NCBI GenBank assembly: GCA_964574655.1
Contig: CAZNOH010000001.1
Location: 201,852-265,851 of the forward strand
DNA from: an uncultured Candidatus Saccharibacteria bacterium
Lineage (GTDB): Bacteria; Patescibacteriota; JABMPQ01; JAQVVF01
Direction of reading: 5' to 3'
DNA: 64,000 nucleotides
Below, piece by piece: positions 6,587-59,101 of the stretch. The notes below the pieces were generated by a model. The model made no database searches and had not been told where the DNA came from. It saw only the letters and a list, made by a program, of their open reading frames with translations. The position numbers and the translations under genes are program-made. How positions within the stretch are numbered: the first letter of the stretch is position 1; every line of letters begins with the position of its first letter.

Positions 6587-7507
6587 ATGGAAGAGAAAAA
6601 AGGATCGTCGGGATGCCAAGTTCTGATTGGCGAGACTGTAGAAAAGAAAGGAAATAGAGATGCCTTGAAGTTGGAATTGGATGCTTATTTGCGATTGGAA
6701 AATATTTTGGGAGAGAAAAGTAATGTTTTGCCTAAGATTTTGGGATTTGTTGAAGATGAAAATAAGGCAGTATTAAAGTTGGAAAGACTACCTGGCAATG
6801 TTGATTTGGAACAATATATTTTAATAGTTTTTGATGAAGCAGAGAAAATTGAGAATATTAGAATTATGATCGGAAATGTTCTTGAAATGTTGGATGATTG
6901 GTTAGCAATAAAATCAACTGATGATCCAGAAATTTTGTTGTGTGAGATTGGGCAGGCATTGAATGTTGCTTGGGAAAAATATGTGCGACTTGGCGGAGAT
7001 CAAAACTTATTTGATTCTGTTGCGTTGAAAAGTTTTGTAACTGACAAAAAGATTAGAGAATTTCTTTTGACTGGTGTTTCTTTGGGACCATGCCATCGTG
7101 ATCTTTGTACTAACAATATTTGGCCATTGTCAGATAATTCAGTACAGGTTTTTGATCCCAGATGGCAACTGACAGGATCAAGCGTTACAAGCATTGGTCA
7201 TGTTGTTTTGGATCTAGCGTCATTTCGGATTAATTTGGAAAGATTGCAAGCAGATCGGTTCAAAAATGGTTTGTCATTATTGATTCCAATTGACATTGTT
7301 GATTCAAAAATTGATGAATGGATTAGGCAGAAACATTTTGTTAGAGAGTTGTACGATTTGGTATTGCTCAGAAGATATATTGCTTTTGCAGCGTGTAGGT
7401 GTGAGCATTGTATTCATCCATCGCGCTTGCATCGTTTTGAACTGATGGAAAAGCAAGCAGCAATAGTAGGGAATAAGTTGATTAATATTTTTGCAAGGAG
7501 ATCTTAG
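6587..7507 (+). CDS. Kinase-like phosphotransferase (APH / choline-kinase fold)
   Basis: An HRDLCTNN catalytic-loop-like motif. A strong SD (gaggagaggagggagag) precedes the ATG. GC is slightly higher than in neighbouring genes. Confidence 0.45.
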   Translation: MEEKKGSSGCQVLIGETVEKKGNRDALKLELDAYLRLENILGEKSNVLPKILGFVEDENKAVLKLERLPGNVDLEQYILIVFDEAEKIENIRIMIGNVLEMLDDWLAIKSTDDPEILLCEIGQALNVAWEKYVRLGGDQNLFDSVALKSFVTDKKIREFLLTGVSLGPCHRDLCTNNIWPLSDNSVQVFDPRWQLTGSSVTSIGHVVLDLASFRINLERLQADRFKNGLSLLIPIDIVDSKIDEWIRQKHFVRELYDLVLLRRYIAFAACRCEHCIHPSRLHRFELMEKQAAIVGNKLINIFARRS

Positions 7508-50303: not shown

Positions 50304-51350
50304 ATGACCAAAACAAATTTTTTAGAATTGATAAATTTTTTACAAAAAAACCATAAAGTCTATGGGCCGGTTTTGGATAGGTCTGGCAGATTATTAGTAA
50401 AAGAAATTAAGGATCCAGAAAAAATAATTTTGAATGGCAGATTAACACATTATTCTTTTAAAAATTTATTTTTGCCATCTCATGAAACTTTATTTGATTA
50501 TGATCATCAAAAATTGAAAGAGCCAAATTTAAGCTATAAAAAACAAGCAATTGTTGGAATGACAATATCCGATTTGGAGGCTTTAGAATTATATGATCAA
50601 GTATTCGTAAAAGATCCATATTATCAGGAAAGACGAAGACAGACTTTAGTTATTGGATATAGTTTAGCGGGTAAAAAAAGTTTTTCTGAGGAATTAATTT
50701 ATGAACAGCAGTTTGAAGAAGATATTTTAGAACATGTGAAGTTTGATGTGTTTTGCGAATTGCGCGAATCTGGAACGAATGACACTAATAATTCTAGTGA
50801 TTTTTGTAAGGTTTTTGCTGGATCGGAGAATGGAATTAAGATTTTGGATGGATTTGGGTATAAGGATTATGAAAATATAAAATATGTTGGGCCAATTAGA
50901 GAACCCGCCTTTGCTTCCGAAGAGGCTGTGGTGGGCAAGGGAGGGTTGGATAAGACAATGATGGCGGTTTATAATAAAATGAGAAAAGGCTATGCCAAAA
51001 AAGTTTGGGAAGATATTGGAAAAAGGTGTATAGAGTGCGGACAATGTACTCTGGTTTGTCCAACTTGTTATTGTTTTAGAATTGATGATGAGCCAAGCTT
51101 GGATAGAGGAAAAGGCAAAAGAGTAAGATGCTGGGATGCTTGTATGTATCATGAATTTTCGGAAATTTCTGGAAAGACAAGATTATTAAAAAGTACTGAA
51201 CAGAGGATGTGGTTTTGGTTTTATCATAAATTTGTTAGAATTCCAGAAAAATATAAAATACCAGGATGTGTTAAATGTGGAAGATGCTCTCGTGTTTGTC
51301 CGGTTGATATTGATTTTATGAAGGTGCTACAAGACATTTTGAAGAGTTGA
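50304..51350 (+). CDS. Group-3 [NiFe] hydrogenase (sulfhydrogenase-type) beta subunit, a 2x[4Fe-4S] protein (AsrA-like)
   Basis: CIECGQCTLVCPTCYC and CVKCGRCSRVCP cluster motifs. Gene context with the gamma and NiFe subunit genes. Confidence 0.6.
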   Translation: MTKTNFLELINFLQKNHKVYGPVLDRSGRLLVKEIKDPEKIILNGRLTHYSFKNLFLPSHETLFDYDHQKLKEPNLSYKKQAIVGMTISDLEALELYDQVFVKDPYYQERRRQTLVIGYSLAGKKSFSEELIYEQQFEEDILEHVKFDVFCELRESGTNDTNNSSDFCKVFAGSENGIKILDGFGYKDYENIKYVGPIREPAFASEEAVVGKGGLDKTMMAVYNKMRKGYAKKVWEDIGKRCIECGQCTLVCPTCYCFRIDDEPSLDRGKGKRVRCWDACMYHEFSEISGKTRLLKSTEQRMWFWFYHKFVRIPEKYKIPGCVKCGRCSRVCPVDIDFMKVLQDILKS

Positions 51351-51467
51351 AAATCAGCTGAATTGATTTTAGAGTTTTGCTAAATAATTTAGTGTTAAAT
51401 TGTTCAATTGCTAGATTGTTAACGTAAAATCGTTGTAGCAATTTAACAATGTAGCAATTTAACAATT

Positions 51468-52310
51468 TTGATGTTTAATCCATATCAAACAAAATTGGTT
51501 GTAATAAAAAGAGTAATTAAAGAATCTTCTGATGTAAAAAGATTTGTTTTGGAATTTGAAAATAAGTTAGATAAAGAAAATTTTGATTTTATACCAGGAC
51601 AGTTTATTAAGGTTTCAATTCCAGGCTTATGCGATGCGCCGTTTACTTTTGGTTCTAGTCCAAAAAATAGAGATAATTTTGAAATTGCAGTTAGGGGAGT
51701 TGGAAATTTGACCAATTTTCTGAATAGAATGCAAATAGGACAAAAAATAGGAATAAGAGGACCGTATGGAAATGGTTTTCCAATGGATTTAATTAAGAAA
51801 AGAAATACTTTGATTGTGTCTGGCGGTTGTGGTTTTGTGCCTTTTAAATCGATGATAGAAGATTATCTAATTGACAAAAAAAGTTATAAATCTAAGTTCC
51901 AAATTTTTTACGGAGCGAGGTCTTTTGACGAGCTGTTGTTTAAAAGAGATTTTGAAAAATGGGAAAGTAGCGGTATAGATTTAAAGATAACTGTTGATAA
52001 GAATGATGAGAAGTGTGATATTTCTAAATATGGTTGCAATGTTGGTTTGGTAACTGAATTAATTAAAAATGAGGATTTGGTAGAAAAACCAGTTGTCTTG
52101 GTTTGTGGTCCGTCAATAATGGTAAAATTTGTAGTAATGGAATTAGATAAACTGTCTATCCCCCATTCTGATATTTTTGTTTCGTTAGAGGGAAGAATGG
52201 AATGCGGAATAGGAGTGTGTGAGCATTGCGCAATTGGTCCTTATTATGTTTGCAAAGATGGACCAGTGTTTAGTTGGGATAAGATTGAATGGATTCCAAA
52301 CATAGTTTGA
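51468..52310 (+). CDS. Hydrogenase gamma subunit: FAD/NAD(P)-binding oxidoreductase with a C-terminal [2Fe-2S] (AsrB/PyrK-like)
   Basis: FNR-like fold (RxYS-type motif, GGCG) and a C-terminal CGIGVCEHCAIG. Confidence 0.6.
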   Translation: MMFNPYQTKLVVIKRVIKESSDVKRFVLEFENKLDKENFDFIPGQFIKVSIPGLCDAPFTFGSSPKNRDNFEIAVRGVGNLTNFLNRMQIGQKIGIRGPYGNGFPMDLIKKRNTLIVSGGCGFVPFKSMIEDYLIDKKSYKSKFQIFYGARSFDELLFKRDFEKWESSGIDLKITVDKNDEKCDISKYGCNVGLVTELIKNEDLVEKPVVLVCGPSIMVKFVVMELDKLSIPHSDIFVSLEGRMECGIGVCEHCAIGPYYVCKDGPVFSWDKIEWIPNIV

Positions 52311-52411: not shown

Positions 52412-53695
52412 ATGTGTTTAACAATGCCTGGAAAAGTAAGTAAAATTAATGGAAACTTTGCGATAGTTGAGGGAAATTTTGGATTGAGAAGTGTCAATAT
52501 TATGGCATTAGGAAAAATTAAGATTGGTGATTGGCTTTTGGCGACAACTGGTTTAGCTGTTAAAAAAATTAATGAAAACGAGGCGCAGGAATTAATTGAT
52601 TTATTGAAAAGTCATGATGCGGTTGACAGCAACAAGATAGATAAAAAATTATTGAATGTTTTAGAAAATGCAAGAAAAAGGAATTTGAATAGAGACGAGA
52701 TTGTTTTTTTATTAAGTTTAAAAAAAAAGAAAGATATTGAGGCTTTGTTTTCAGAAGCTGATGTGATTAGAAAAAGTTATTTAAAAGATTTTATATGCAT
52801 TCATGGCATAATTGAATTTTCAAATTATTGTGAGAATAATTGTTCATATTGCGGATTGAGATTTGAAAATAAGAAATTAAAAAGATACAGAATGTCTTTT
52901 AAGGAGATTGTTGAAGTAATTGATGAAGCAGTAAATAAAATAGGTTATAAAATGTTGGTATTGCAGAGCGGAGTTGATAAAGGATGGAGCGATGCGAAAT
53001 TAATTGAATTAATAAAATTGATTAAAAAAAAGCATCGAGTTTTTATTCTGATAAGTATTGGTGAACGGAGTTTGGAATGTTATAGAAAGATGAAAAAAGC
53101 AGGAGCTGATGGAGTTTTGTTTAGATTTGAGACAGCAAATAAAGATCTTTATCACAAATTGCATTTATCTAAGACATTGAAAGGCAATTTTAAGAAGCGA
53201 TTAAAATTAATTGGTGAATTAAAGAAAATGGGTTATTATATTTCTTCAGGGTCAATGATTGGATTACCTGGTCAAACAATTGGTGATTTGGCAAACGATG
53301 TTTTAATGATGAAAAAGTTGAAAGTAGGAATGGTCTCAATGGGTCCCTTTGTCCCATGTAAAAATACTCCATTTGAGAAAGAAAAAAAAGCTGAAACGAT
53401 GTTGAGTTTGAAAATGATAGCTATTTGTCGTATTTTAATGAAAGAAGCAAGGATACCAATTACTTCTGCTTTAGAGACAATTGGAGGCGAAGAGATTAGG
53501 AAAAAAGGATTGAGCTGTGGTGCGAATTCATTGATGTTCAATCTAACACCGCAAAAATATAGAAAAGATTATAAAATTTACAATAACAAATTTTATGGGA
53601 GAAACAAGAAATTAGAGAGAGCAGCTTTATTTCAGAATGAAGATAGCTGGAGGATGATCGAGCAAGAGTTTAGAAAAAAAATAGATAAATTTTGA
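52412..53695 (+). CDS. Fusion protein: N-terminal HypC/HupF-type [NiFe]-hydrogenase chaperone domain (about 75 aa) plus a radical-SAM HydE [FeFe]-hydrogenase maturase
   Basis: Starts MCLTMPGKV..GDWLL..G.A..KINENEA (the HypC signature with Cys2). The rest aligns along its length with HydE: IIEFSNYCENNCSYCGLR, KRYRM, LQSG, ETAN, GSMIGLPGQT, MGPFVP, CGANS. Confidence 0.7.
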   Translation: MCLTMPGKVSKINGNFAIVEGNFGLRSVNIMALGKIKIGDWLLATTGLAVKKINENEAQELIDLLKSHDAVDSNKIDKKLLNVLENARKRNLNRDEIVFLLSLKKKKDIEALFSEADVIRKSYLKDFICIHGIIEFSNYCENNCSYCGLRFENKKLKRYRMSFKEIVEVIDEAVNKIGYKMLVLQSGVDKGWSDAKLIELIKLIKKKHRVFILISIGERSLECYRKMKKAGADGVLFRFETANKDLYHKLHLSKTLKGNFKKRLKLIGELKKMGYYISSGSMIGLPGQTIGDLANDVLMMKKLKVGMVSMGPFVPCKNTPFEKEKKAETMLSLKMIAICRILMKEARIPITSALETIGGEEIRKKGLSCGANSLMFNLTPQKYRKDYKIYNNKFYGRNKKLERAALFQNEDSWRMIEQEFRKKIDKF

Positions 53696-53699
53696 GTAT

Positions 53700-55070
53700 A
53701 TGCTAATAATAGATCAGAGAAAAATTAAAGAGTTTTTAGATAATAAGAAAAACGTAGATGAAGATGAGGCAAAGCAGATTGTTAAAAAAGCAAAAAAAAA
53801 GAAAGGTCTTAATTTAGCAGAAGTGGCGATTTTATTGAATGTTAATGATGAGAAGTTAATTGCTGAAATGTTTAAGGCGGCGATTGAAATAAAAAAAGCG
53901 ATATATGGGAATAGATTGGTTCTATTTGCGCCACTATATATTTCGAACTATTGCGTTAATGATTGTGAATATTGTAGCTTTCATATTCGAAACAAAGCGT
54001 CAAGAAAAAAATTAACCTTGGATGAGGTTAGAAAACAAGTTGAAATTTTGGAAGATATGGGCCACAAGAGACTGCTTTTAGAATTTGGCGAAGATCCCAT
54101 TAATAATCCAATTGATTATGTGGTTGATGTAATAAAAACAATATATAATGTAAAAAGGGGTAATGGATCGATTAGAAGAGTGAATATTAATATAGCAGCA
54201 ACAACCGTCGAAAATTATAAAAAAATAAAAGAAGCTGGAATTGGAACTTACCAGCTTTTTCAAGAAACTTATCATCAACCAACCTATAAAAAATTGCATT
54301 GCGGTCCTAAAGCTGACTATGAACGGCAAATTACGGCTTTAGATCGAGCTTTTCAAGCGGGAATTGATGATTTAGGAATCGGTGTTTTATTCGGACTTTA
54401 TGATTATAAATTTGAAGTTTTAAGTTTGCTAATGCATGCCCAATATCTGGAAAAGAAGAATGGCGTAGGGCCTCATACAATTTCCGTACCGAGATTTCAG
54501 TCTGCAATGACTGTTGATTATAAGTCTAGATATAAAGTTTCCGATAAAGCTTTTTTAAAACTAGTAGCGATCTTGAGAATGGCAGTCCCATATACGGGAA
54601 TAATAATGTCAACCAGGGAAACTCCAGAGATTCGTAGAAAAGCGTTTGAAATTGGCGTATCACAAACTAGTGCAGGATCAAAAACTGCGCCAGGAGGATA
54701 TCTGAAAAAATCAAAAACTAGTGATTTGCAACAATTTTCTTTGCATGATAAAAGGTCACTGGATGAAGTTGTTTGTGATATTTGCGGGCTTGGATATTTA
54801 CCAAGTTTTTGCACAGCATGTTATCGTGTCGGGCGGACAGGCGATCAATTTATGGAATATGCAAAATCAGGAAAAATTCAGAGATTTTGTCAACCTAACG
54901 CGATAATGACTTTAAAGGAATATTTAGTTGATTATGCATCAAAAGATACAAAGAAAGCAGGTGAAGAATTGATTAATAGTGAATTAAAAAAGATGGATGT
55001 GAAAAAAAGAGCTTTGTTTAAGAGAAAGCTAAAATTGATCGAACAAGGAAAGAGGGATATATATATTTAG
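53700..55070 (+). CDS. Radical-SAM HydG (tyrosine lyase producing CO/CN ligands), [FeFe]-hydrogenase maturase type
   Basis: N-terminal PLYISNYCVNDCEYC (CX3CX2C) and a C-terminal CTACYRVGRTGDQFMEYAKSGKIQRFC, which is an exact CX2CX22C auxiliary-cluster motif. That motif separates HydG from ThiH. Confidence 0.7.
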   Translation: MLIIDQRKIKEFLDNKKNVDEDEAKQIVKKAKKKKGLNLAEVAILLNVNDEKLIAEMFKAAIEIKKAIYGNRLVLFAPLYISNYCVNDCEYCSFHIRNKASRKKLTLDEVRKQVEILEDMGHKRLLLEFGEDPINNPIDYVVDVIKTIYNVKRGNGSIRRVNINIAATTVENYKKIKEAGIGTYQLFQETYHQPTYKKLHCGPKADYERQITALDRAFQAGIDDLGIGVLFGLYDYKFEVLSLLMHAQYLEKKNGVGPHTISVPRFQSAMTVDYKSRYKVSDKAFLKLVAILRMAVPYTGIIMSTRETPEIRRKAFEIGVSQTSAGSKTAPGGYLKKSKTSDLQQFSLHDKRSLDEVVCDICGLGYLPSFCTACYRVGRTGDQFMEYAKSGKIQRFCQPNAIMTLKEYLVDYASKDTKKAGEELINSELKKMDVKKRALFKRKLKLIEQGKRDIYI

Positions 55071-55191: not shown

Positions 55192-55866
55192 ATGAGCAGC
55201 AATGATGGTTTGATTGAAGCAGCAAGATTTTCGTGGAATTGTTGTCCAGAAAATAGAGTTCTTTGCGATGGATTATACGGCTTTGTTGGAGGAAATGGCG
55301 GGCATGATGTTGCATGGATTCGAGGTCAACTAAAAAGTCTTTATTCATATTTTTATTATCTGTTGATTGCTAGGCAAAATGGAATTTCTGATCCTTTTGA
55401 TTTGCGAGTTGTTCAGGCACATTGGATTGGCAATGATTTGTTGAGGGTTGTGAAAGCTAGCGATGTTAAAGAATTATTATCAGCTACTAAAGAATTGAGC
55501 GCATTGCCGAGAGAAAAAGAAACGATGATGAGGTGGTTATTGAGCAAGCTTGTAAAATTAGGATCTTATCCTCATCATAGTTTTTATGCAACTGTTTATG
55601 AAAAGTTGAATCCCGCACTTGTCCGTCAAGGAAAAAGATGTTTTATAGACTGCGGCAAAGTGTTGGAATTGGAAGACGATCATTTTCTTATCGAAGTCAA
55701 TGGAGTTACGAGAAAATGCGGTTATGGTTTTCTGAAAGGAAAGATTGAAGTTGGAGATTTGGTTTTTATCCATTTGAATGAGGGTTGCAGGGTTGCAACT
55801 TTAGATGAAAAAACAAAATTAGATGATTGGTTTGTTGCTACAGAATGTACATTAAGGTTGCTTTAA
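55192..55866 (+). CDS. Hypothetical hydrogenase-cluster protein with 9 Cys; the C-terminal part has a weak HypC-barrel-like pattern
   Basis: Strong SD aaaggaggagaaag. Position between hydG and the NiFe small-subunit gene. No P-loop, so it is not HydF. Confidence 0.4.
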   Translation: MSSNDGLIEAARFSWNCCPENRVLCDGLYGFVGGNGGHDVAWIRGQLKSLYSYFYYLLIARQNGISDPFDLRVVQAHWIGNDLLRVVKASDVKELLSATKELSALPREKETMMRWLLSKLVKLGSYPHHSFYATVYEKLNPALVRQGKRCFIDCGKVLELEDDHFLIEVNGVTRKCGYGFLKGKIEVGDLVFIHLNEGCRVATLDEKTKLDDWFVATECTLRLL

Positions 55867-55923: not shown

Positions 55924-56688
55924 ATGGAACAACAAAAATTAAAAGTAGCAATGGTTTCTTTGACTTCCTGCGAAGGATGTTATTTTAGCTTGCTTGATTT
56001 AGGAAATGAATTTTTAGAAATTGCTGACAAAATTGATTTAGTTAAATTTCGATTATTTGAAGAAAAAGAGCATTCTGAAAATGAAAAATATGATCTTGCG
56101 TTTGTGGAAGGCAGTCCGATTTCTAAAGAGAATTTTGATAAGTTGATTAATTTGAGATTGAGAACTAAAAAATTAATTATTTTGGGTGGATGTGCTCATA
56201 CTGGTGGAACATATGCAATGCGAAATCATACTGACAAAAAGAAAGCTTGTAAATATGTTTATCCTAAAACTAATAAAAAAGTTTTTAATCCAAAAATTTT
56301 AGAACTTTCTAAAGTTGTAAAAATTGACGGAATTATTCCAACTTGTCCGGTTAATCCTAGAGAATTTGTTAGATTTATGTCTTTTATCTTGAATAGTTTA
56401 ACGTTTAAAATTGTTGAAAGGCCAGTCTGTCATGAATGCCAATTAGCAGAGACTCCTTGTTTATTAAAAATGGGATTGCCTTGTTTTGGGCCAATGGCTC
56501 TTGGAGGTTGTGATGCGCCTTGTCCTCAAGCAGGAATGCCTTGTCAATTATGTCGTGGACCAATGAAAGAGATTGTTTGGGAAAATTTTGAAAAGAAAAT
56601 GAAAGAAATAATGGGTGCTGAAGTTTGGGAAAAAGATTATCATGAAATACTCGAGATTTTTAATGTGAAGGATAAAATTAATTGTTAA
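55924..56688 (+). CDS. [NiFe] hydrogenase small subunit, group 3 type (delta subunit; no Tat signal)
   Basis: N-terminal KVAMVSLTSCEGCYFSLLD, and more FeS Cys in the C-terminal half (CPVNPREF.., CHECQ, CFGPM..GGCDAPCP). Confidence 0.75.
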   Translation: MEQQKLKVAMVSLTSCEGCYFSLLDLGNEFLEIADKIDLVKFRLFEEKEHSENEKYDLAFVEGSPISKENFDKLINLRLRTKKLIILGGCAHTGGTYAMRNHTDKKKACKYVYPKTNKKVFNPKILELSKVVKIDGIIPTCPVNPREFVRFMSFILNSLTFKIVERPVCHECQLAETPCLLKMGLPCFGPMALGGCDAPCPQAGMPCQLCRGPMKEIVWENFEKKMKEIMGAEVWEKDYHEILEIFNVKDKINC

Positions 56689-56722: not shown

Positions 56723-57052
56723 ATGGAAATTAAACAAGAGATTAAAAAACCAGAAGCTGTTAAAATAATTGTTGAAGATAACGGTAAAATTGTTGGCAGA
56801 GCTTATTTATATTTGATTAATAATGATTTGCATAAAGAGCCTTATGGATTGTTGGAGGATGTTTTTGTTGAAGAAAATCAAAGAGGAAAAGGAACTGGTA
56901 CGAAATTAGTTCAGGCAGTAATTGATGAAGCTAAGAAAAGAGATTGTTATAAATTAATTGCAACTAGTAGGAAATCAAGAGAGCAAGTACACGAATGGTA
57001 TTTGAAATTTGGTTTTGAAGATTATGGTTGTGAATTTAGGATGGAGTTATAA
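56723..57052 (+). CDS. GNAT-family N-acetyltransferase (small, 109 aa)
   Basis: Q/RxxGxG/A motif in NQRGKGTGTKLV. Confidence 0.5.
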   Translation: MEIKQEIKKPEAVKIIVEDNGKIVGRAYLYLINNDLHKEPYGLLEDVFVEENQRGKGTGTKLVQAVIDEAKKRDCYKLIATSRKSREQVHEWYLKFGFEDYGCEFRMEL

Positions 57053-57082: not shown

Positions 57083-58387
57083 ATGAAAAAAATAATAAAA
57101 ATAAATCATCTAGCTAAAATGGAAGGGCATGCTTCGTTTGAAGGCAAGATTTTGGCAGGAAGAATTTTAGAAGCGCATATTATTACAGAAGAAGGCGCAA
57201 GATTAATTGAGGGAACATTGGTAGGCAGACATTATTCTGAAGCGTCGACGATTACTTCCAGAATTTGTGGGATCTGTCCAATTGTTCATCATCTAACAGC
57301 TGTGAAAGCTTTGGAAGAATGTTTTGATGTTAAAGTCAGCTCTGAAACTATAATGCTTAGAAAAGTTTTGGAATTAGCGCAAATAATTCATAGCCATACT
57401 TTGCATCTTTTCTTTTTGTCTTTACCTGATTTTTTGAATTATGATGATACAAAAAAGATGGCAGGTAGATATCCTAATGAAGCGCAGATGGCAATTGATA
57501 TTCGGAAATGGGCGACTGATTTATGTTTAGTAATTGGTGGTAGAATTACACATCCTTTGACAAATATGGTAGGCGGATTTAGGAAATGGCCCGAAGAAGA
57601 AAATTTAGAAAAATTTTTAGATGGTTCTGGTGATATTTTGGAGATGGCATTAAAAATCGCCCAATTATTTAGAGATTTAGATTATCCAAAGTTTGATAAT
57701 CTAGGAAACTTTATTGCGTTATCAAATGATACTGAATATGCAATCTATGAAGGCGAAGTTAAAATTTGGGAGACAAAGAAAAATTTAGCTAAAAAAATAT
57801 TTGGCAAGCAAATGAAAGGAATAAGTGCAACGAAATTTATTAAGAAAATTAAAGAAATAGAATTGCAAAATGAATTGGTAAAAAGAGTGAAGTATAATGG
57901 AAAGTCTTTTTTTTGTGGAGCATTAGCAAGGATTAATATCAATAAATATCTGTTGAATGAAGAGTCTTCAAAATTTTTAGAAACAACAAATATTGATTTT
58001 CCAACAGATAATACTTTTTATAATGTTTTAGCTCAAGCTGTTGAGGTTATTCATTGTGTTGAAGAAATCAGAAATTTATTGAGAGAATTAAAGAAGATAA
58101 ATTGGTTGAAGGCTAAAAATACGAGTTTTAAAATTAAGGCTGGCAAAGGAGTGGCTGCAATTGAGGCGCCGAGAGGGACTTTGTATCATTATTATGAAAC
58201 TGATAAAGATGGATATATTAAAAACTGTAATATAATTACGCCAACAGCGCAGTTTTTGGCAAAATTAGAAGATGATTTGAGTGTGTTTTTATCTGATGTT
58301 AAAAATTTGCCGGATTTGGAAAGAAAAAATAAAATAAAAATGATGATAAGGGCGTTTGATCCGTGTATTAGTTGCGCTACGCACTAA
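57083..58387 (+). CDS. [NiFe] hydrogenase large subunit (alpha), ending at the Ni-site His with no C-terminal extension
   Basis: N-terminal RICGICPIVHH (RxCGxC) and C-terminal DPCISCATH followed directly by a stop codon. Confidence 0.85.
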   Translation: MKKIIKINHLAKMEGHASFEGKILAGRILEAHIITEEGARLIEGTLVGRHYSEASTITSRICGICPIVHHLTAVKALEECFDVKVSSETIMLRKVLELAQIIHSHTLHLFFLSLPDFLNYDDTKKMAGRYPNEAQMAIDIRKWATDLCLVIGGRITHPLTNMVGGFRKWPEEENLEKFLDGSGDILEMALKIAQLFRDLDYPKFDNLGNFIALSNDTEYAIYEGEVKIWETKKNLAKKIFGKQMKGISATKFIKKIKEIELQNELVKRVKYNGKSFFCGALARININKYLLNEESSKFLETTNIDFPTDNTFYNVLAQAVEVIHCVEEIRNLLRELKKINWLKAKNTSFKIKAGKGVAAIEAPRGTLYHYYETDKDGYIKNCNIITPTAQFLAKLEDDLSVFLSDVKNLPDLERKNKIKMMIRAFDPCISCATH

Positions 58388-58419: not shown

Positions 58420-58851
58420 ATGAAAAAACAAAATAGAAAAAAAATAAACAAGGATGTTACAGTCAGAAGTTTATCAGAAAAAATTGATAAGCGTTTTGAG
58501 CAAGTTGATAAGCGTTTTGATAAGATGATGAAAGTAATGGATAATAGATTTGGTGAGTTGTATAGTTTTTTACAAAAACACATGGTAACAAAAGAGGAAT
58601 TTAATGAAAGATTGTTGAAGTTGGAAAACAGAATTGAGAATATTGAACAAAATTATTCAACGAAGGATGATTTATTGAAAGTAAAAGATGAACTTTTGAC
58701 ATTAATGGATAAAATTATTAATGATTATAAAAAAGATAAACAAGAACATGCTTTTTTCAGTTATCATCTGGAAAGAATTGCAAAATTAGAATATCGGATT
58801 GATAAAATAGAGGGTAAGAAAGTTAAAGACTTAAAATTTACAAATGCATGA
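58420..58851 (+). CDS. Hypothetical coiled-coil protein
   Basis: 143 aa with heptad-like charged repeats. Confidence 0.35.
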   Translation: MKKQNRKKINKDVTVRSLSEKIDKRFEQVDKRFDKMMKVMDNRFGELYSFLQKHMVTKEEFNERLLKLENRIENIEQNYSTKDDLLKVKDELLTLMDKIINDYKKDKQEHAFFSYHLERIAKLEYRIDKIEGKKVKDLKFTNA

Positions 58852-59101
58852 CTTTCATGCGGCGGACAATTTATTAAAGATGGCACTTGAACATGCAAAG
58901 AAAAATAAACTGAGAAAAGTTGACAAAATTAAAATTGAATTAGGAAAATTTGTTGAGCATGGGCAAGAAATATTAGCAGATAATTTGAAATTTAATATTA
59001 AAATGTTGGCTAAAGGTACGATTGCTAAAAATGCAGAAATTGTTATTATTGAGAAACAAGGTGAAAGAGGCTATGAATTAGTAGAGATTGAAGGAGAATA
59101 G
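58844..59101 (+). CDS. Minimal HypA-like nickel metallochaperone lacking the zinc-finger domain
   Basis: MHDFHAADNLLKMALEHAKK parallels the HypA MHE-Ni site plus helix. The C-terminal YELVEIEGE parallels the HypA end. There are no Cys at all (HypA normally has CxxC..CxxC). Confidence 0.45.
   Translation: MHDFHAADNLLKMALEHAKKNKLRKVDKIKIELGKFVEHGQEILADNLKFNIKMLAKGTIAKNAEIVIIEKQGERGYELVEIEGE

What the first reader, a model, noticed from the sequence alone, without database searches (positions are those of the whole stretch)
58844..59101. HypA homolog that has lost its zinc-finger domain and has no cysteines
The 85-aa protein begins MHDFHAAD..LKMALEHAKK, matching the HypA MHE nickel site and first helix. 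It ends with a beta-strand pattern like HypA (..YELVEIEGE).

It lacks the inserted CxxC..CxxC zinc domain entirely, and has no Cys or His pairs elsewhere.

It overlaps the upstream coiled-coil ORF by 8 nt and lies in the hydrogenase cluster.

A naturally minimised Ni-chaperone, with no HypB gene in the window, would bear on how Ni is inserted in these reduced genomes.
Basis: inference. Interest (0 to 1): 0.6.

Follow-up and report, generated by a model that had tools for sequence, protein, structure and literature searches.

The report
Zinc-finger-less mini HypA nickel chaperone
This 85-residue gene is a real, conserved, single-domain version of the nickel chaperone HypA with the zinc-finger module cleanly removed; it sits behind a nickel-iron hydrogenase gene in many tiny-genome (Patescibacteria) bacteria, although reviews state that every HypA has a zinc site.

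Summary
ORF 58844-59101 encodes an 85-aa, Cys-free protein starting MHDFH and overlaps the upstream ORF by 8 nt.

**Identity.**
- It passes Pfam HypA (36.9 bits against a 28.9 cutoff), but only on profile positions 1-69 of 112.
- Profile-profile comparison with canonical HypAs gives 99.4% probability.
- An AF2 model (pLDDT 90.5) hits only HypA structures. The zinc module is excised and the last strand is kept.

**Conservation.**
- dN/dS is 0.09 against the closest relative.
- At least 135 sequence clusters share the MHD form.
- In 77 of 83 loci the gene lies just downstream of a group-3b [NiFe] large subunit. That subunit keeps all four Cys ligands and has no C-terminal extension.

- Zn-domain loss is not specific to reduced genomes. 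Spirochaetota lost it independently, inside hypABFCDE operons that include HypB.
- This clade has conserved extra histidines: His5, and invariant His39 on a 4-aa loop insertion that is often His-rich in relatives.
- No HypB was found in the window or in 1.23 Mb of neighbourhoods. Genome-wide absence could not be tested.

**Verdict.** This is an undescribed variant of a known chaperone, of moderate interest. The neighbouring HypC-HydE fusion and HydG may be the bigger story.

The parts
58844..59101 (+). mini-HypA: a single-domain (Ni-binding domain only) HypA homolog of 85 aa with no Cys
   Evidence: Pfam PF01155 E 4.1e-9, 36.9 bits (GA 28.9), profile 1-69/112. PDB best hit is TkHypA 3a43. hhalign 99.4%. 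AF2 pLDDT 90.5. Foldseek top 14 hits are all HypA. dN/dS 0.09.
58844..58858 (+). N-terminal M1-H2-D3-F4-H5, the putative Ni site (MHD instead of the canonical MHE, plus His5)
   Evidence: M1, H2 and D3 are invariant and F4 and H5 are at least 90% conserved in 26 sequences. His5 is present in 100 of 135 MHD-type minis, against 0 of 24 canonical HypAs.
58952..58963 (+). 4-residue insertion V37-E38-H39-G40 in the beta1-alpha2 loop; H39 and G40 are invariant
   Evidence: Gap against TkHypA and canonical HypAs. At least one His in this loop in 133/135 MHD minis, against 17/46 MHE minis and 5/24 canonical HypAs. The loop is expanded to His-rich stretches in relatives.
59051..59065 (+). Junction (E70-K71-Q72-G73-E74) where the CxxC...CxxC zinc module of canonical HypA is missing
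   Evidence: Alignment A2 shows a clean gap of about 30-50 columns between beta2 and the terminal strand.
59066..59098 (+). C-terminal strand R75..E85 (..YELVEIEGE), homologous to the last strand of canonical HypA
   Evidence: Aligned 'G-x-E..L..IE.E' motif shared with canonical HypAs. Strand E77-84 in the AF2 model. Foldseek alignments spanning 117-127 columns of full-length HypA.
57083..58387 (+). [NiFe] hydrogenase large subunit (group 3b / sulfhydrogenase alpha-like), the presumed client; it ends ...DPCISCATH* with no C-terminal extension
   Evidence: PF00374. Best NCBIfam matches are ShyA/HydA, below cutoffs. RICGICPIVH and DPCISCATH motifs present; 75/75 relatives end at the His. Directly upstream of mini-HypA in 77/83 loci.
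55924..56688 (+). [NiFe] hydrogenase small subunit (delta-like)
   Evidence: PF01058. Best NCBIfam matches are sulfhydrogenase HydD/ShyD.
50304..52310 (+). Hydrogenase beta (4Fe-4S, 50304-51350) and gamma (FAD/NAD, 51468-52310) subunits
   Evidence: Pfam Fer4_22; FAD_binding_6/NAD_binding_1/DHODB_Fe-S_bind. Best NCBIfam matches are ShyB/ShyC-like.
52412..53695 (+). HypC-HydE fusion (HypC OB-fold with Cys2, then a radical-SAM HydE)
   Evidence: PF01455 and PF04055. TIGR03956 280.7 bits against a 254.6 cutoff. 120/120 top homologs share the architecture. AF2 pLDDT 90, pTM 0.90. Foldseek TmHydE E 3e-34, 41% id.
53700..55070 (+). HydG (radical-SAM tyrosine lyase that makes Fe-CO/CN synthons in [FeFe] hydrogenase maturation)
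   Evidence: TIGR03955 612.7 bits against a 312 cutoff. The CX2CX22C C-terminal motif is visible in the translation.
55192..55866 (+). DUF6390 paralog with a HypC-like C-terminal region
   Evidence: PF19927 E 8.9e-13; PF01455 E 2.8e-4, below GA. The ortholog in L004 is 6667-7428.
58420..58851 (+). Lineage-specific coiled-coil ORF inserted between the large subunit and mini-HypA; probably not part of the system
   Evidence: No homolog in any of 83 loci. In L004 the large subunit and mini-HypA are 64 nt apart. Only sub-threshold coiled-coil hits.

Best explanation
The ORF encodes a single-domain 'mini-HypA'. It is the alpha/beta nickel-binding domain of the [NiFe]-hydrogenase nickel metallochaperone HypA, with the CxxC...CxxC zinc module excised between strand beta2 and the last strand.

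Shown:
- Homology to HypA, the fold and the deletion boundaries.
- Strong purifying selection.
- Near-obligate position as the last gene of a group-3b [NiFe] hydrogenase operon, directly behind the large subunit.
- That large subunit keeps all four Ni-Fe cysteine ligands and lacks the protease-cleaved C-terminal tail.

Inferred:
- The protein binds Ni(II) at its N-terminus (Met1 amine and His2, with Asp3 replacing Glu3).
- It docks on the apo-large subunit through the retained Ni domain, as TkHypA does with the group-3b large subunit HyhL, and it hands over Ni after Fe(CN)2CO insertion.

Further inferred, about 50% likely: the clade-specific His5 and the invariant His39 supply extra imidazole ligands. 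His39 sits on a 4-residue loop insertion just upstream of the position equivalent to HpHypA Asp40. These ligands would create a pre-formed high-affinity site. In canonical HypA that site only forms when HypB binding brings in a distal His (His98 in TkHypA).

This would let the protein work without the zinc domain and possibly without HypB. I put HypB independence at about 40%.
For: Homology:
- Pfam HypA is above the gathering threshold.
- TkHypA is the best PDB sequence hit.
- hhalign against canonical HypAs gives 99.4%, E 6e-22.

Fold:
- AF2 pLDDT is 90.5 with the HypA Ni-domain order H5-20 / E26-35 / H45-56 / E65-75 / E77-84.
- The Foldseek top 14 hits are all HypA, with TMq up to 0.82 across the Zn-domain gap. 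The next hit has E 0.059.

Clean excision with a shared terminal strand motif.

Selection and breadth:
- dN/dS is 0.09.
- 76 close homologs and 277 profile hits.
- 80 species-level genomes.

Synteny:
- The large subunit is immediately upstream in 77/83 loci.
- 75/75 large subunits end at DPCxxCxxH, and 69/69 complete ones have RxCGxCxxxH.

Derived metal-site features:
- Invariant M1, H2, D3, H39 and G40; near-invariant H5 and E38.
- A loop His is present in 133/135 MHD minis, against 5/24 canonical HypAs. Relatives have His-rich loop expansions.

Published context:
- The Ni ligands of HpHypA include Asp40 in this loop region.
- In TkHypA, His98 joins the site only in the HypAB complex.
- The HyhL N-terminal tail contacts the HypA Ni site (PMC7055735).

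No HypB:
- None in the window.
- None in 1.23 Mb of neighbourhoods.

Ni/Co uptake genes (CbiM, PDGLE) lie inside four of the clusters.
Against: - The proximity of His39 and His5 to Met1 and His2 was therefore not measured.
- Glu3, a proposed Ni ligand in HpHypA, is replaced by Asp in every member.
- NCBIfam HypA equivalog scores are far below the cutoffs (35.7 against 88.1).
- In H. pylori, Zn-site Cys mutants lose 40-90% of hydrogenase activity (PMC5557546). In canonical HypA the domain is therefore not dispensable.
- Zn-less HypAs in Spirochaetota sit next to a HypB. Loss of the domain therefore does not imply HypB independence.
- HypB could be encoded elsewhere in these genomes of about 0.6-1 Mb.
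- In two species the gene is an orphan among cell-wall or housekeeping genes (L059, L077).
Confidence: 0.7

Rival explanations
1. It is an ordinary HypA in function. It still works with a HypB (or another NTPase such as an Mrp/MinD-type HypB, or SlyD) encoded elsewhere in the genome. The zinc domain was simply dispensable, and the extra histidines are incidental.
For: Spirochaetota 80-aa Zn-less HypAs lie directly upstream of a cobW/HypB gene in hypABFCDE operons. Another lies after HycI in an Mbh-type cluster. Only about 15 kb per genome was inspected for the Patescibacteria.
Against: No HypB was found in 83 neighbourhoods. That includes L057, where the rest of the hyp set is clustered with the hydrogenase. 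No recurrent P-loop ORF occurs in the clusters. The loop His and His5 are specific to the clade whose neighbourhoods lack HypB.
Confidence: 0.3
2. It is a metal-free assembly or docking factor. It keeps the large subunit's N-terminal tail and active site open during maturation, while Ni enters spontaneously or from another donor.
For: The domain that contacts the large subunit in the TkHypA-HyhL complex is the one retained (review text). Some [NiFe] organisms have no detectable HypA or HypB at all (PMC9431212). hypB defects are rescued by high Ni (PMC12134894).
Against: M1, H2 and D3 are invariant, and H39 is invariant with His-rich expansions of the same loop. Both are hard to explain without metal binding.
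Confidence: 0.1
3. It is a nickel chaperone or buffer for a different client than the adjacent hydrogenase.
For: Orphan copies lie away from any hydrogenase gene in L059 and L077. H. pylori HypA also serves urease.
Against: 77/83 loci place it directly behind the large subunit. No urease, CODH or other Ni enzyme was seen in the neighbourhoods.
Confidence: 0.05
4. It is a decaying remnant of hypA (a pseudogene fragment) or a chance ORF.
For: It is only two thirds of a normal HypA and fails the NCBIfam equivalog cutoffs.
Against: dN/dS is 0.09 with dS of about 1. Length is conserved at 84-85 aa in 76 homologs. More than 135 clusters share invariant positions. The AF2 model is confident. The excision is clean and in frame, and the terminal strand is preserved.
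Confidence: 0.02

Closest known systems
Thermococcus kodakarensis HypA (PDB 3A43; HypAB complex 5AUN; HyhL-HypA complex 5YXY/5YY0)
   Same: It is the best sequence and fold match. Shared features are the N-terminal M-H-acidic motif, the alpha/beta Ni domain and the terminal strand. Its client is also a group-3b enzyme (HyhL), like the adjacent hydrogenase here.
   Different: TkHypA is 139 aa with a Cys4 zinc domain, and its His98 completes a nanomolar Ni site only when HypB(AT) binds. Here the zinc domain and the His98 region are absent, Glu3 is Asp, and a 4-aa insertion carrying the invariant His39 is present. The client lacks the C-terminal extension that TkHyhL has.
Helicobacter pylori HypA (PDB 2KDX, 6G81) and E. 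coli HypA/HybF
   Same: They share the MH(E/D) N-terminus and the first helix. A ligand from the beta1-alpha2 loop region (Asp40) is proposed to complete the Ni site.
   Different: They have a dynamic Zn(Cys)4 site that is required for full hydrogenase and urease maturation. They partner with HypB, UreE and SlyD. None of these features or partners was seen here.
Zn-less MHE-type HypAs of about 80 aa (for example P0169 in Spirochaetota MAGs, P0162 in an Mbh-type cluster); annotated but, as far as I could find, not described
   Same: The zinc module is excised in the same precise way and the terminal strand is retained.
   Different: They keep the canonical MHE motif and the 9-residue loop without a conserved His. 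They are encoded next to HypB or HycI. They derive independently from 111-aa Spirochaetota HypAs (87 bits to those, against 46 bits to the window protein).

Membership tests
HypA (PF01155 / TIGR00100; [NiFe]-hydrogenase nickel metallochaperone) | Significant match to the family profile | tested here: met
   Pfam gives 36.9 bits against a gathering score of 28.9, E 4.1e-9, but only on profile positions 1-69/112. hhalign gives 99.4%. The NCBIfam equivalog cutoffs are NOT reached (35.7 against 88.1 for TIGR00100).
HypA | N-terminal Met1-His2-Glu3 (MHE) nickel motif at the very start of the protein | tested here: inconclusive
   M1 and H2 are invariant and the ORF starts at the first possible start codon. 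Position 3 is invariantly Asp, not Glu.
HypA | Alpha/beta nickel-binding domain fold, with the last strand contributed by the C-terminus | tested here: met
   AF2 pLDDT 90.5. The Foldseek top 14 PDB hits are all HypA, with TMq 0.68-0.82. The terminal strand motif aligns.
HypA | [quoted passage not shown] | tested here: not met
   The protein has 0 Cys. The alignment gap covers the whole module. 117/135 MHD-type relatives are Cys-free.
HypA | Genomic association with a [NiFe] hydrogenase or hyp genes | tested here: met
   It lies directly downstream of the large subunit here and in 77/83 loci. It occurs with hypCDEF in L057.
HypA | Partner NTPase HypB (G3E GTPase or Mrp/MinD ATPase) in the genome | tested here: inconclusive
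   None was found in the 64-kb window or in 1.23 Mb of related neighbourhoods. Whole genomes could not be searched with these tools.
HypA | Ni(II) binding and transfer to the large subunit | not testable with these tools
   This needs biochemistry (ITC or XAS, and transfer assays).

The most novel reading that the evidence does not exclude
The MHD/His-loop mini-HypA is a self-sufficient nickel insertase that needs neither HypB nor a protease. Its remodelled Ni site (Met1 amine, His2, Asp3, His5, His39) replaces the HypB-induced high-affinity state.

It would be one part of a radically streamlined [NiFe] maturation pathway in Patescibacteria. In that pathway the HypDEF cyanide and CO machinery is itself replaced. 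The replacement is either a HypC-HydE fusion with or without HydG ([FeFe]-type maturases feeding a [NiFe] enzyme), or a HypC + EamA + DUF6390 module.
Probability: 0.3. Interest if true: 0.8.

Novelty: new variant of a known kind. Interest (0 to 1): 0.55.

Why it matters
The role of HypA's zinc domain has been debated for about 15 years: is it structural, regulatory or partner-binding? Current reviews treat the domain as universal.

A large natural family of HypAs lacks it, and the loss happened at least twice independently. This gives ready-made 'deletion mutants' that evolution has validated:
- one lineage still sits next to HypB (Spirochaetota);
- one has no HypB nearby and carries a compensating His-bearing loop (Patescibacteria).

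Comparing the two makes several questions directly testable. What is the zinc domain for? Can the Ni domain alone dock on the large subunit? Can nickel insertion proceed without the NTPase?

The family also provides the smallest known scaffold (about 80-85 aa, Cys-free) for studying or engineering Ni delivery. In addition, it flags that [NiFe] maturation in ultra-small bacteria is non-canonical throughout.

Tried and rejected
1. Chance ORF or pseudogene: rejected on conservation, dN/dS and the confident fold.
2. It has no homolog in any of 83 related loci, and the closest relative has a 64-nt gap instead. PHROG, Pfam and NCBIfam give only sub-threshold coiled-coil noise.
3. Cryptic HypB, UreG or CobW nearby: motif scans, tblastn with a real HypB and clustering of 653 unassigned neighbourhood ORFs found no P-loop family.
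4. His-rich Ni-storage or SlyD-like proteins nearby: none. The only window hit was ribosomal protein L3.
5. Intrinsic terminator after the gene: none by the consensus scan.
6. Literature on Zn-less HypA, HypB in CPR, or DUF6390: no hits in the held library. The primary TkHypA papers were not held, so their content is cited through the review.
8. Model coordinates are not exposed, so I could not measure the distance from His39 or His5 to the N-terminus.
9. A complex prediction with the large subunit was not attempted, because chimeric inputs are not accepted.
10. Whole-genome absence of HypB could not be tested.

Full report
**Observation.** The ORF at 58844-59101 (+) is real.
- It encodes 85 aa, starts MHDFHAAD at the first available start codon and ends ...YELVEIEGE.
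- It has no Cys and four His (H2, H5, H17, H39).
- It overlaps the upstream 143-aa ORF (58420-58851) by 8 nt.
- The window is low-GC (about 32%), with nearly all genes on the + strand.
- The gene closes a hydrogenase cluster and is followed by pgk, eno and gpmI.

**Identity.**
- Pfam HypA (PF01155) matches at E 4.1e-9, 36.9 bits, above the 28.9 gathering score. The match covers only profile positions 1-69 of 112.
- NCBIfam HypA equivalogs match the same stretch, far below their cutoffs.
- The best solved relative is T. kodakarensis HypA. Residues 1-72 align to its 1-68, with a 4-residue insertion in the query.
- A profile of 26 family members against a profile of 21 canonical HypAs gives 99.4% probability, E 6e-22.
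- An AF2 model built on the family alignment is confident (pLDDT 90.5, pTM 0.77). Its element order is helix 5-20, strand 26-35, helix 45-56, strand 65-75, strand 77-84.
- Foldseek against the PDB returns 14 significant hits, and all of them are HypA. TM-scores reach 0.82, with alignments spanning 117-127 columns, which bridge the zinc domain. The next hit has E 0.059.
- A joint alignment shows a clean excision. The mini forms follow canonical HypA through beta2, skip the entire CxxC...CxxC module, and resume at the shared terminal motif G-x-E..L..IE.E.

**It is a family, not an accident.**
- 76 homologs of 84-85 aa were found in Patescibacteria MAGs (Buchananbacteria, Kerfeldbacteria, Falkowbacteria and others).
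- An exhaustive profile search of 1.84 billion cluster representatives gave 277 hits. The top of the list is dominated by 78-95-aa proteins that match end to end. Canonical 112-143-aa HypAs match only positions 1-70.
- A scan of species-representative genomes returned 80 loci. Some TPA record titles name other taxa, but gene order is the same; I did not verify their taxonomy.
- dN/dS against the closest relative is 0.09 at dS of about 1.
- Invariant positions are M1, H2, D3, A7, G34, H39, G40, N47, L48, N51, L79, I82, G84 and E85. F4, H5 and E38 are at least 90% conserved.

**Context.**
- tblastn with the window's proteins shows the [NiFe] large subunit immediately upstream of the mini-HypA in 77 of 83 loci. 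Of the other six, three are contigs truncated just upstream of the gene (L020, L025, L038); L056, L059 and L077 have upstream sequence but no large subunit, and L059 and L077 are confirmed orphans among cell-wall or housekeeping genes.
- The enzyme's four subunits best match the sulfhydrogenase (group 3b) alpha, beta, gamma and delta subunits. This is the class of TkHyhL, which was crystallised with HypA.
- All 75 large subunits found end exactly at the His of DPCxxCxxH. All 69 complete ones carry RxCGxCxxxH.
- The client is therefore a bona fide Ni-Fe enzyme, but it lacks the C-terminal extension and hence the endopeptidase checkpoint.
- Four clusters include CbiM-type Ni/Co uptake genes; L043, checked by Pfam, has CbiM plus PDGLE.
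- The coiled-coil ORF that overlaps the gene here has no homolog in any other locus. In the closest relative the two genes are 64 nt apart. The overlap is therefore a lineage-specific accident.

**HypB.**
- No HypB, UreG or CobW, and no HypD, HypE or HypF, occurs in the window.
- Across 1.23 Mb of related neighbourhoods there is no HypB motif, no tblastn hit with a genuine HypB and no recurrent P-loop ORF.
- The informative case is L057. [quoted passage not shown]
- Genome-wide absence could not be tested.

**Zn-domain loss is recurrent and not tied to genome reduction.**
- A second subtype of about 80 aa has a canonical MHE start and no loop insertion.
- It occurs in Spirochaetota MAGs, inside hypA-hypB-hypF-hypC-hypD-hypE operons next to a Hox-type enzyme.
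- It also occurs after HycI in an Mbh/Mrp-type cluster.
- The Spirochaetota minis share lineage-specific motifs (MHELSIAEELL..., ...VSFEGD) with 111-aa Spirochaetota HypAs that carry CxxC at positions 73 and 87.
- They score 87 bits to those proteins, against 46 bits to the window protein.
- This is therefore an independent, clean deletion of about 31 aa, and it coexists with HypB.

**What is special about the Patescibacteria clade.**
- It combines MHD (never MHE), His5 (100 of 135 sequences, against 0 of 24 canonical) and a longer beta1-alpha2 loop (median 13 residues against 9).
- That loop carries at least one His in 133 of 135 sequences. The figures are 17 of 46 for MHE minis and 5 of 24 for canonical HypAs.
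- In relatives the same loop is expanded into His-rich stretches, for example DESHAGHDHHSLHE, LAHDGHEEHVED and GEHHTPEDQDNHCHEE.
- According to the review read:
  - the HpHypA Ni site uses the N-terminal amine, His2, Glu3 and Asp40, which lies at the end of this loop;
  - TkHypA reaches nanomolar affinity only when HypB binding brings His98 to the MHE motif;
  - the HyhL N-terminal tail contacts the HypA Ni site.
- By alignment, the Asp40-equivalent lies 6-7 residues after His39.
- I therefore infer, but have not shown, that His39 and perhaps His5 give a constitutively completed Ni site. This would compensate for the loss of the His98-type ligand and possibly of HypB.

**Comparison with the literature.**
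- Reviews from 2019, 2025 and 2026 state that all HypAs have the two-site architecture and that the Zn site is important for stability and partner interaction.
- H. pylori Zn-site mutants retain 9-60% of hydrogenase activity.
- I found no description of Zn-less HypAs and no solved structure of one.
- Databases already label several of these proteins 'HypA'. The gene is therefore annotated, but the variant appears to be undescribed.
- Organisms with [NiFe] enzymes and no detectable HypA or HypB are on record.

**Verdict.** The gene is best called a Ni-domain-only variant of HypA. It fails one literature-defining feature (the Zn site), so I classify it as a new variant of a known kind rather than a plain member. 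Interest is moderate (0.55). It would be higher if HypB independence and the remodelled site were confirmed.

**Side finding, possibly more novel.** The Fe(CN)2CO branch is also non-canonical.
- The window encodes a HypC-HydE fusion:
  - it retains Cys2 (MCLTMPGKV);
  - the HydE part is above the TIGR03956 cutoff;
  - AF2 pTM is 0.90;
  - it is 41% identical to T. maritima HydE.
- It also encodes a bona fide HydG (612.7 bits against a 312 cutoff).
- No HydA or HydF and no HypD, HypE or HypF lies nearby.
- The fusion is a large family. All 120 top hits share the architecture, and they are annotated only as 'HydE' or 'biotin synthase'.
- Across loci the hydrogenase and mini-HypA are accompanied by one of three mutually exclusive modules:

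| Module | Loci |
|---|---|
| HypC + EamA + DUF6390 | 36 |
| HypC-HydE, with or without HydG | 15, plus the window |
| Canonical HypDEF | 3 |

- The closest relative, L004, has the DUF6390 module where this window has HydE and HydG, which indicates a recent swap.

Noticed in passing
window 52412-53695 (+): HypC-HydE fusion. An N-terminal HypC OB-fold with the essential Cys2 (MCLTMPGKV) is fused to a radical-SAM HydE (TIGR03956 above cutoff; 41% id to T. maritima HydE; AF2 pTM 0.90, which suggests a fixed inter-domain arrangement). All 120 top homologs share the architecture, and all those carrying an organism name but one (a 'Deltaproteobacteria' MAG title) are Patescibacteria-type. They are annotated only as 'HydE' or 'biotin synthase'. 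An [FeFe]-type maturase fused to the [NiFe]-specific iron chaperone, inside a [NiFe] operon, suggests an undescribed route to the Fe-CO/CN moiety.
   Followed up: partly
window 53700-55070 (+): Bona fide HydG (TIGR03955 612.7 bits against a 312 cutoff; CX2CX22C tail) in a [NiFe] hydrogenase cluster. No HydA H-cluster motif, HydF-like GTPase or HypD/E/F lies in the window. True HydG orthologs occur in only 4 of the 15 other loci that have the HypC-HydE fusion.
   Followed up: partly
window 55192-55866 (+); L004 6148-6654 and 6667-7428; L043 5537-6316: DUF6390 proteins (no literature at all) are core members of these clusters. The set HypC + EamA transporter + DUF6390 occurs in 36 loci and is mutually exclusive with HypC-HydE and with HypDEF. 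This makes it a candidate alternative Fe-ligand module. The window keeps only a second paralog with a HypC-like C-terminal region (PF01455 E 2.8e-4). The closest relative, L004, has both paralogs plus EamA where the window has HydE and HydG.
   Followed up: partly
window 57083-58387 (+) and 75 related large subunits: All group-3b-like large subunits in this lineage end exactly at the His of DPCxxCxxH, so they have no C-terminal extension and presumably need no maturation endopeptidase. Both Cys pairs are conserved.
   Followed up: yes
window 58420-58851 (+): A 143-aa lysine- and glutamate-rich coiled-coil ORF is inserted between the large subunit and mini-HypA. It has no homolog in any of 83 related loci, including the relative with 84-91% identity. 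Only weak PHROG and coiled-coil hits were found, and its origin is unknown.
   Followed up: partly
window 56723-57052 (+): A small GNAT acetyltransferase (109 aa) lies between the small and large hydrogenase subunits. It is found only here and in the closest relative, L004. Other lineages carry different inserts at this position, for example Ldh_2, 23S rRNA IVP or small unknown ORFs.
   Followed up: no
L084 10001-10243; L086 10001-10243: Independent Zn-less HypAs of about 80 aa (MHE type) occur outside Patescibacteria. In Spirochaetota they sit within hypA-hypB-hypF-hypC-hypD-hypE next to a HoxFUYH-type enzyme. Elsewhere one follows HycI in an Mbh/Mrp group-4 cluster. They derive from 111-aa lineage-specific HypAs by a clean deletion of about 31 aa.
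   Followed up: yes
L012, L017, L043 (1522-2503), L083: CbiM-type Ni/Co ECF-transporter genes are embedded in four of the hydrogenase clusters (CbiM plus a PDGLE-domain protein confirmed by Pfam in L043), consistent with nickel demand. None was seen in the window.
   Followed up: partly
L059 2807-3067; L077 5446-5736: Orphan mini-HypA genes lie among cell-wall or housekeeping genes (PBP and FemAB; alanine racemase and ArgRS) with no hydrogenase within the contig. The hydrogenase may be elsewhere or lost, or the protein may have another client.
   Followed up: partly
P0120, P0128, P0143, P0136, P0153, P0107, P0142, P0149 (relatives, not in the window): Some mini-HypAs carry long His-rich (occasionally Cys-containing) insertions of up to about 40 residues in the beta1-alpha2 loop. 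These resemble the His-rich Ni-storage stretches of HypB, SlyD and UreE.
   Followed up: partly
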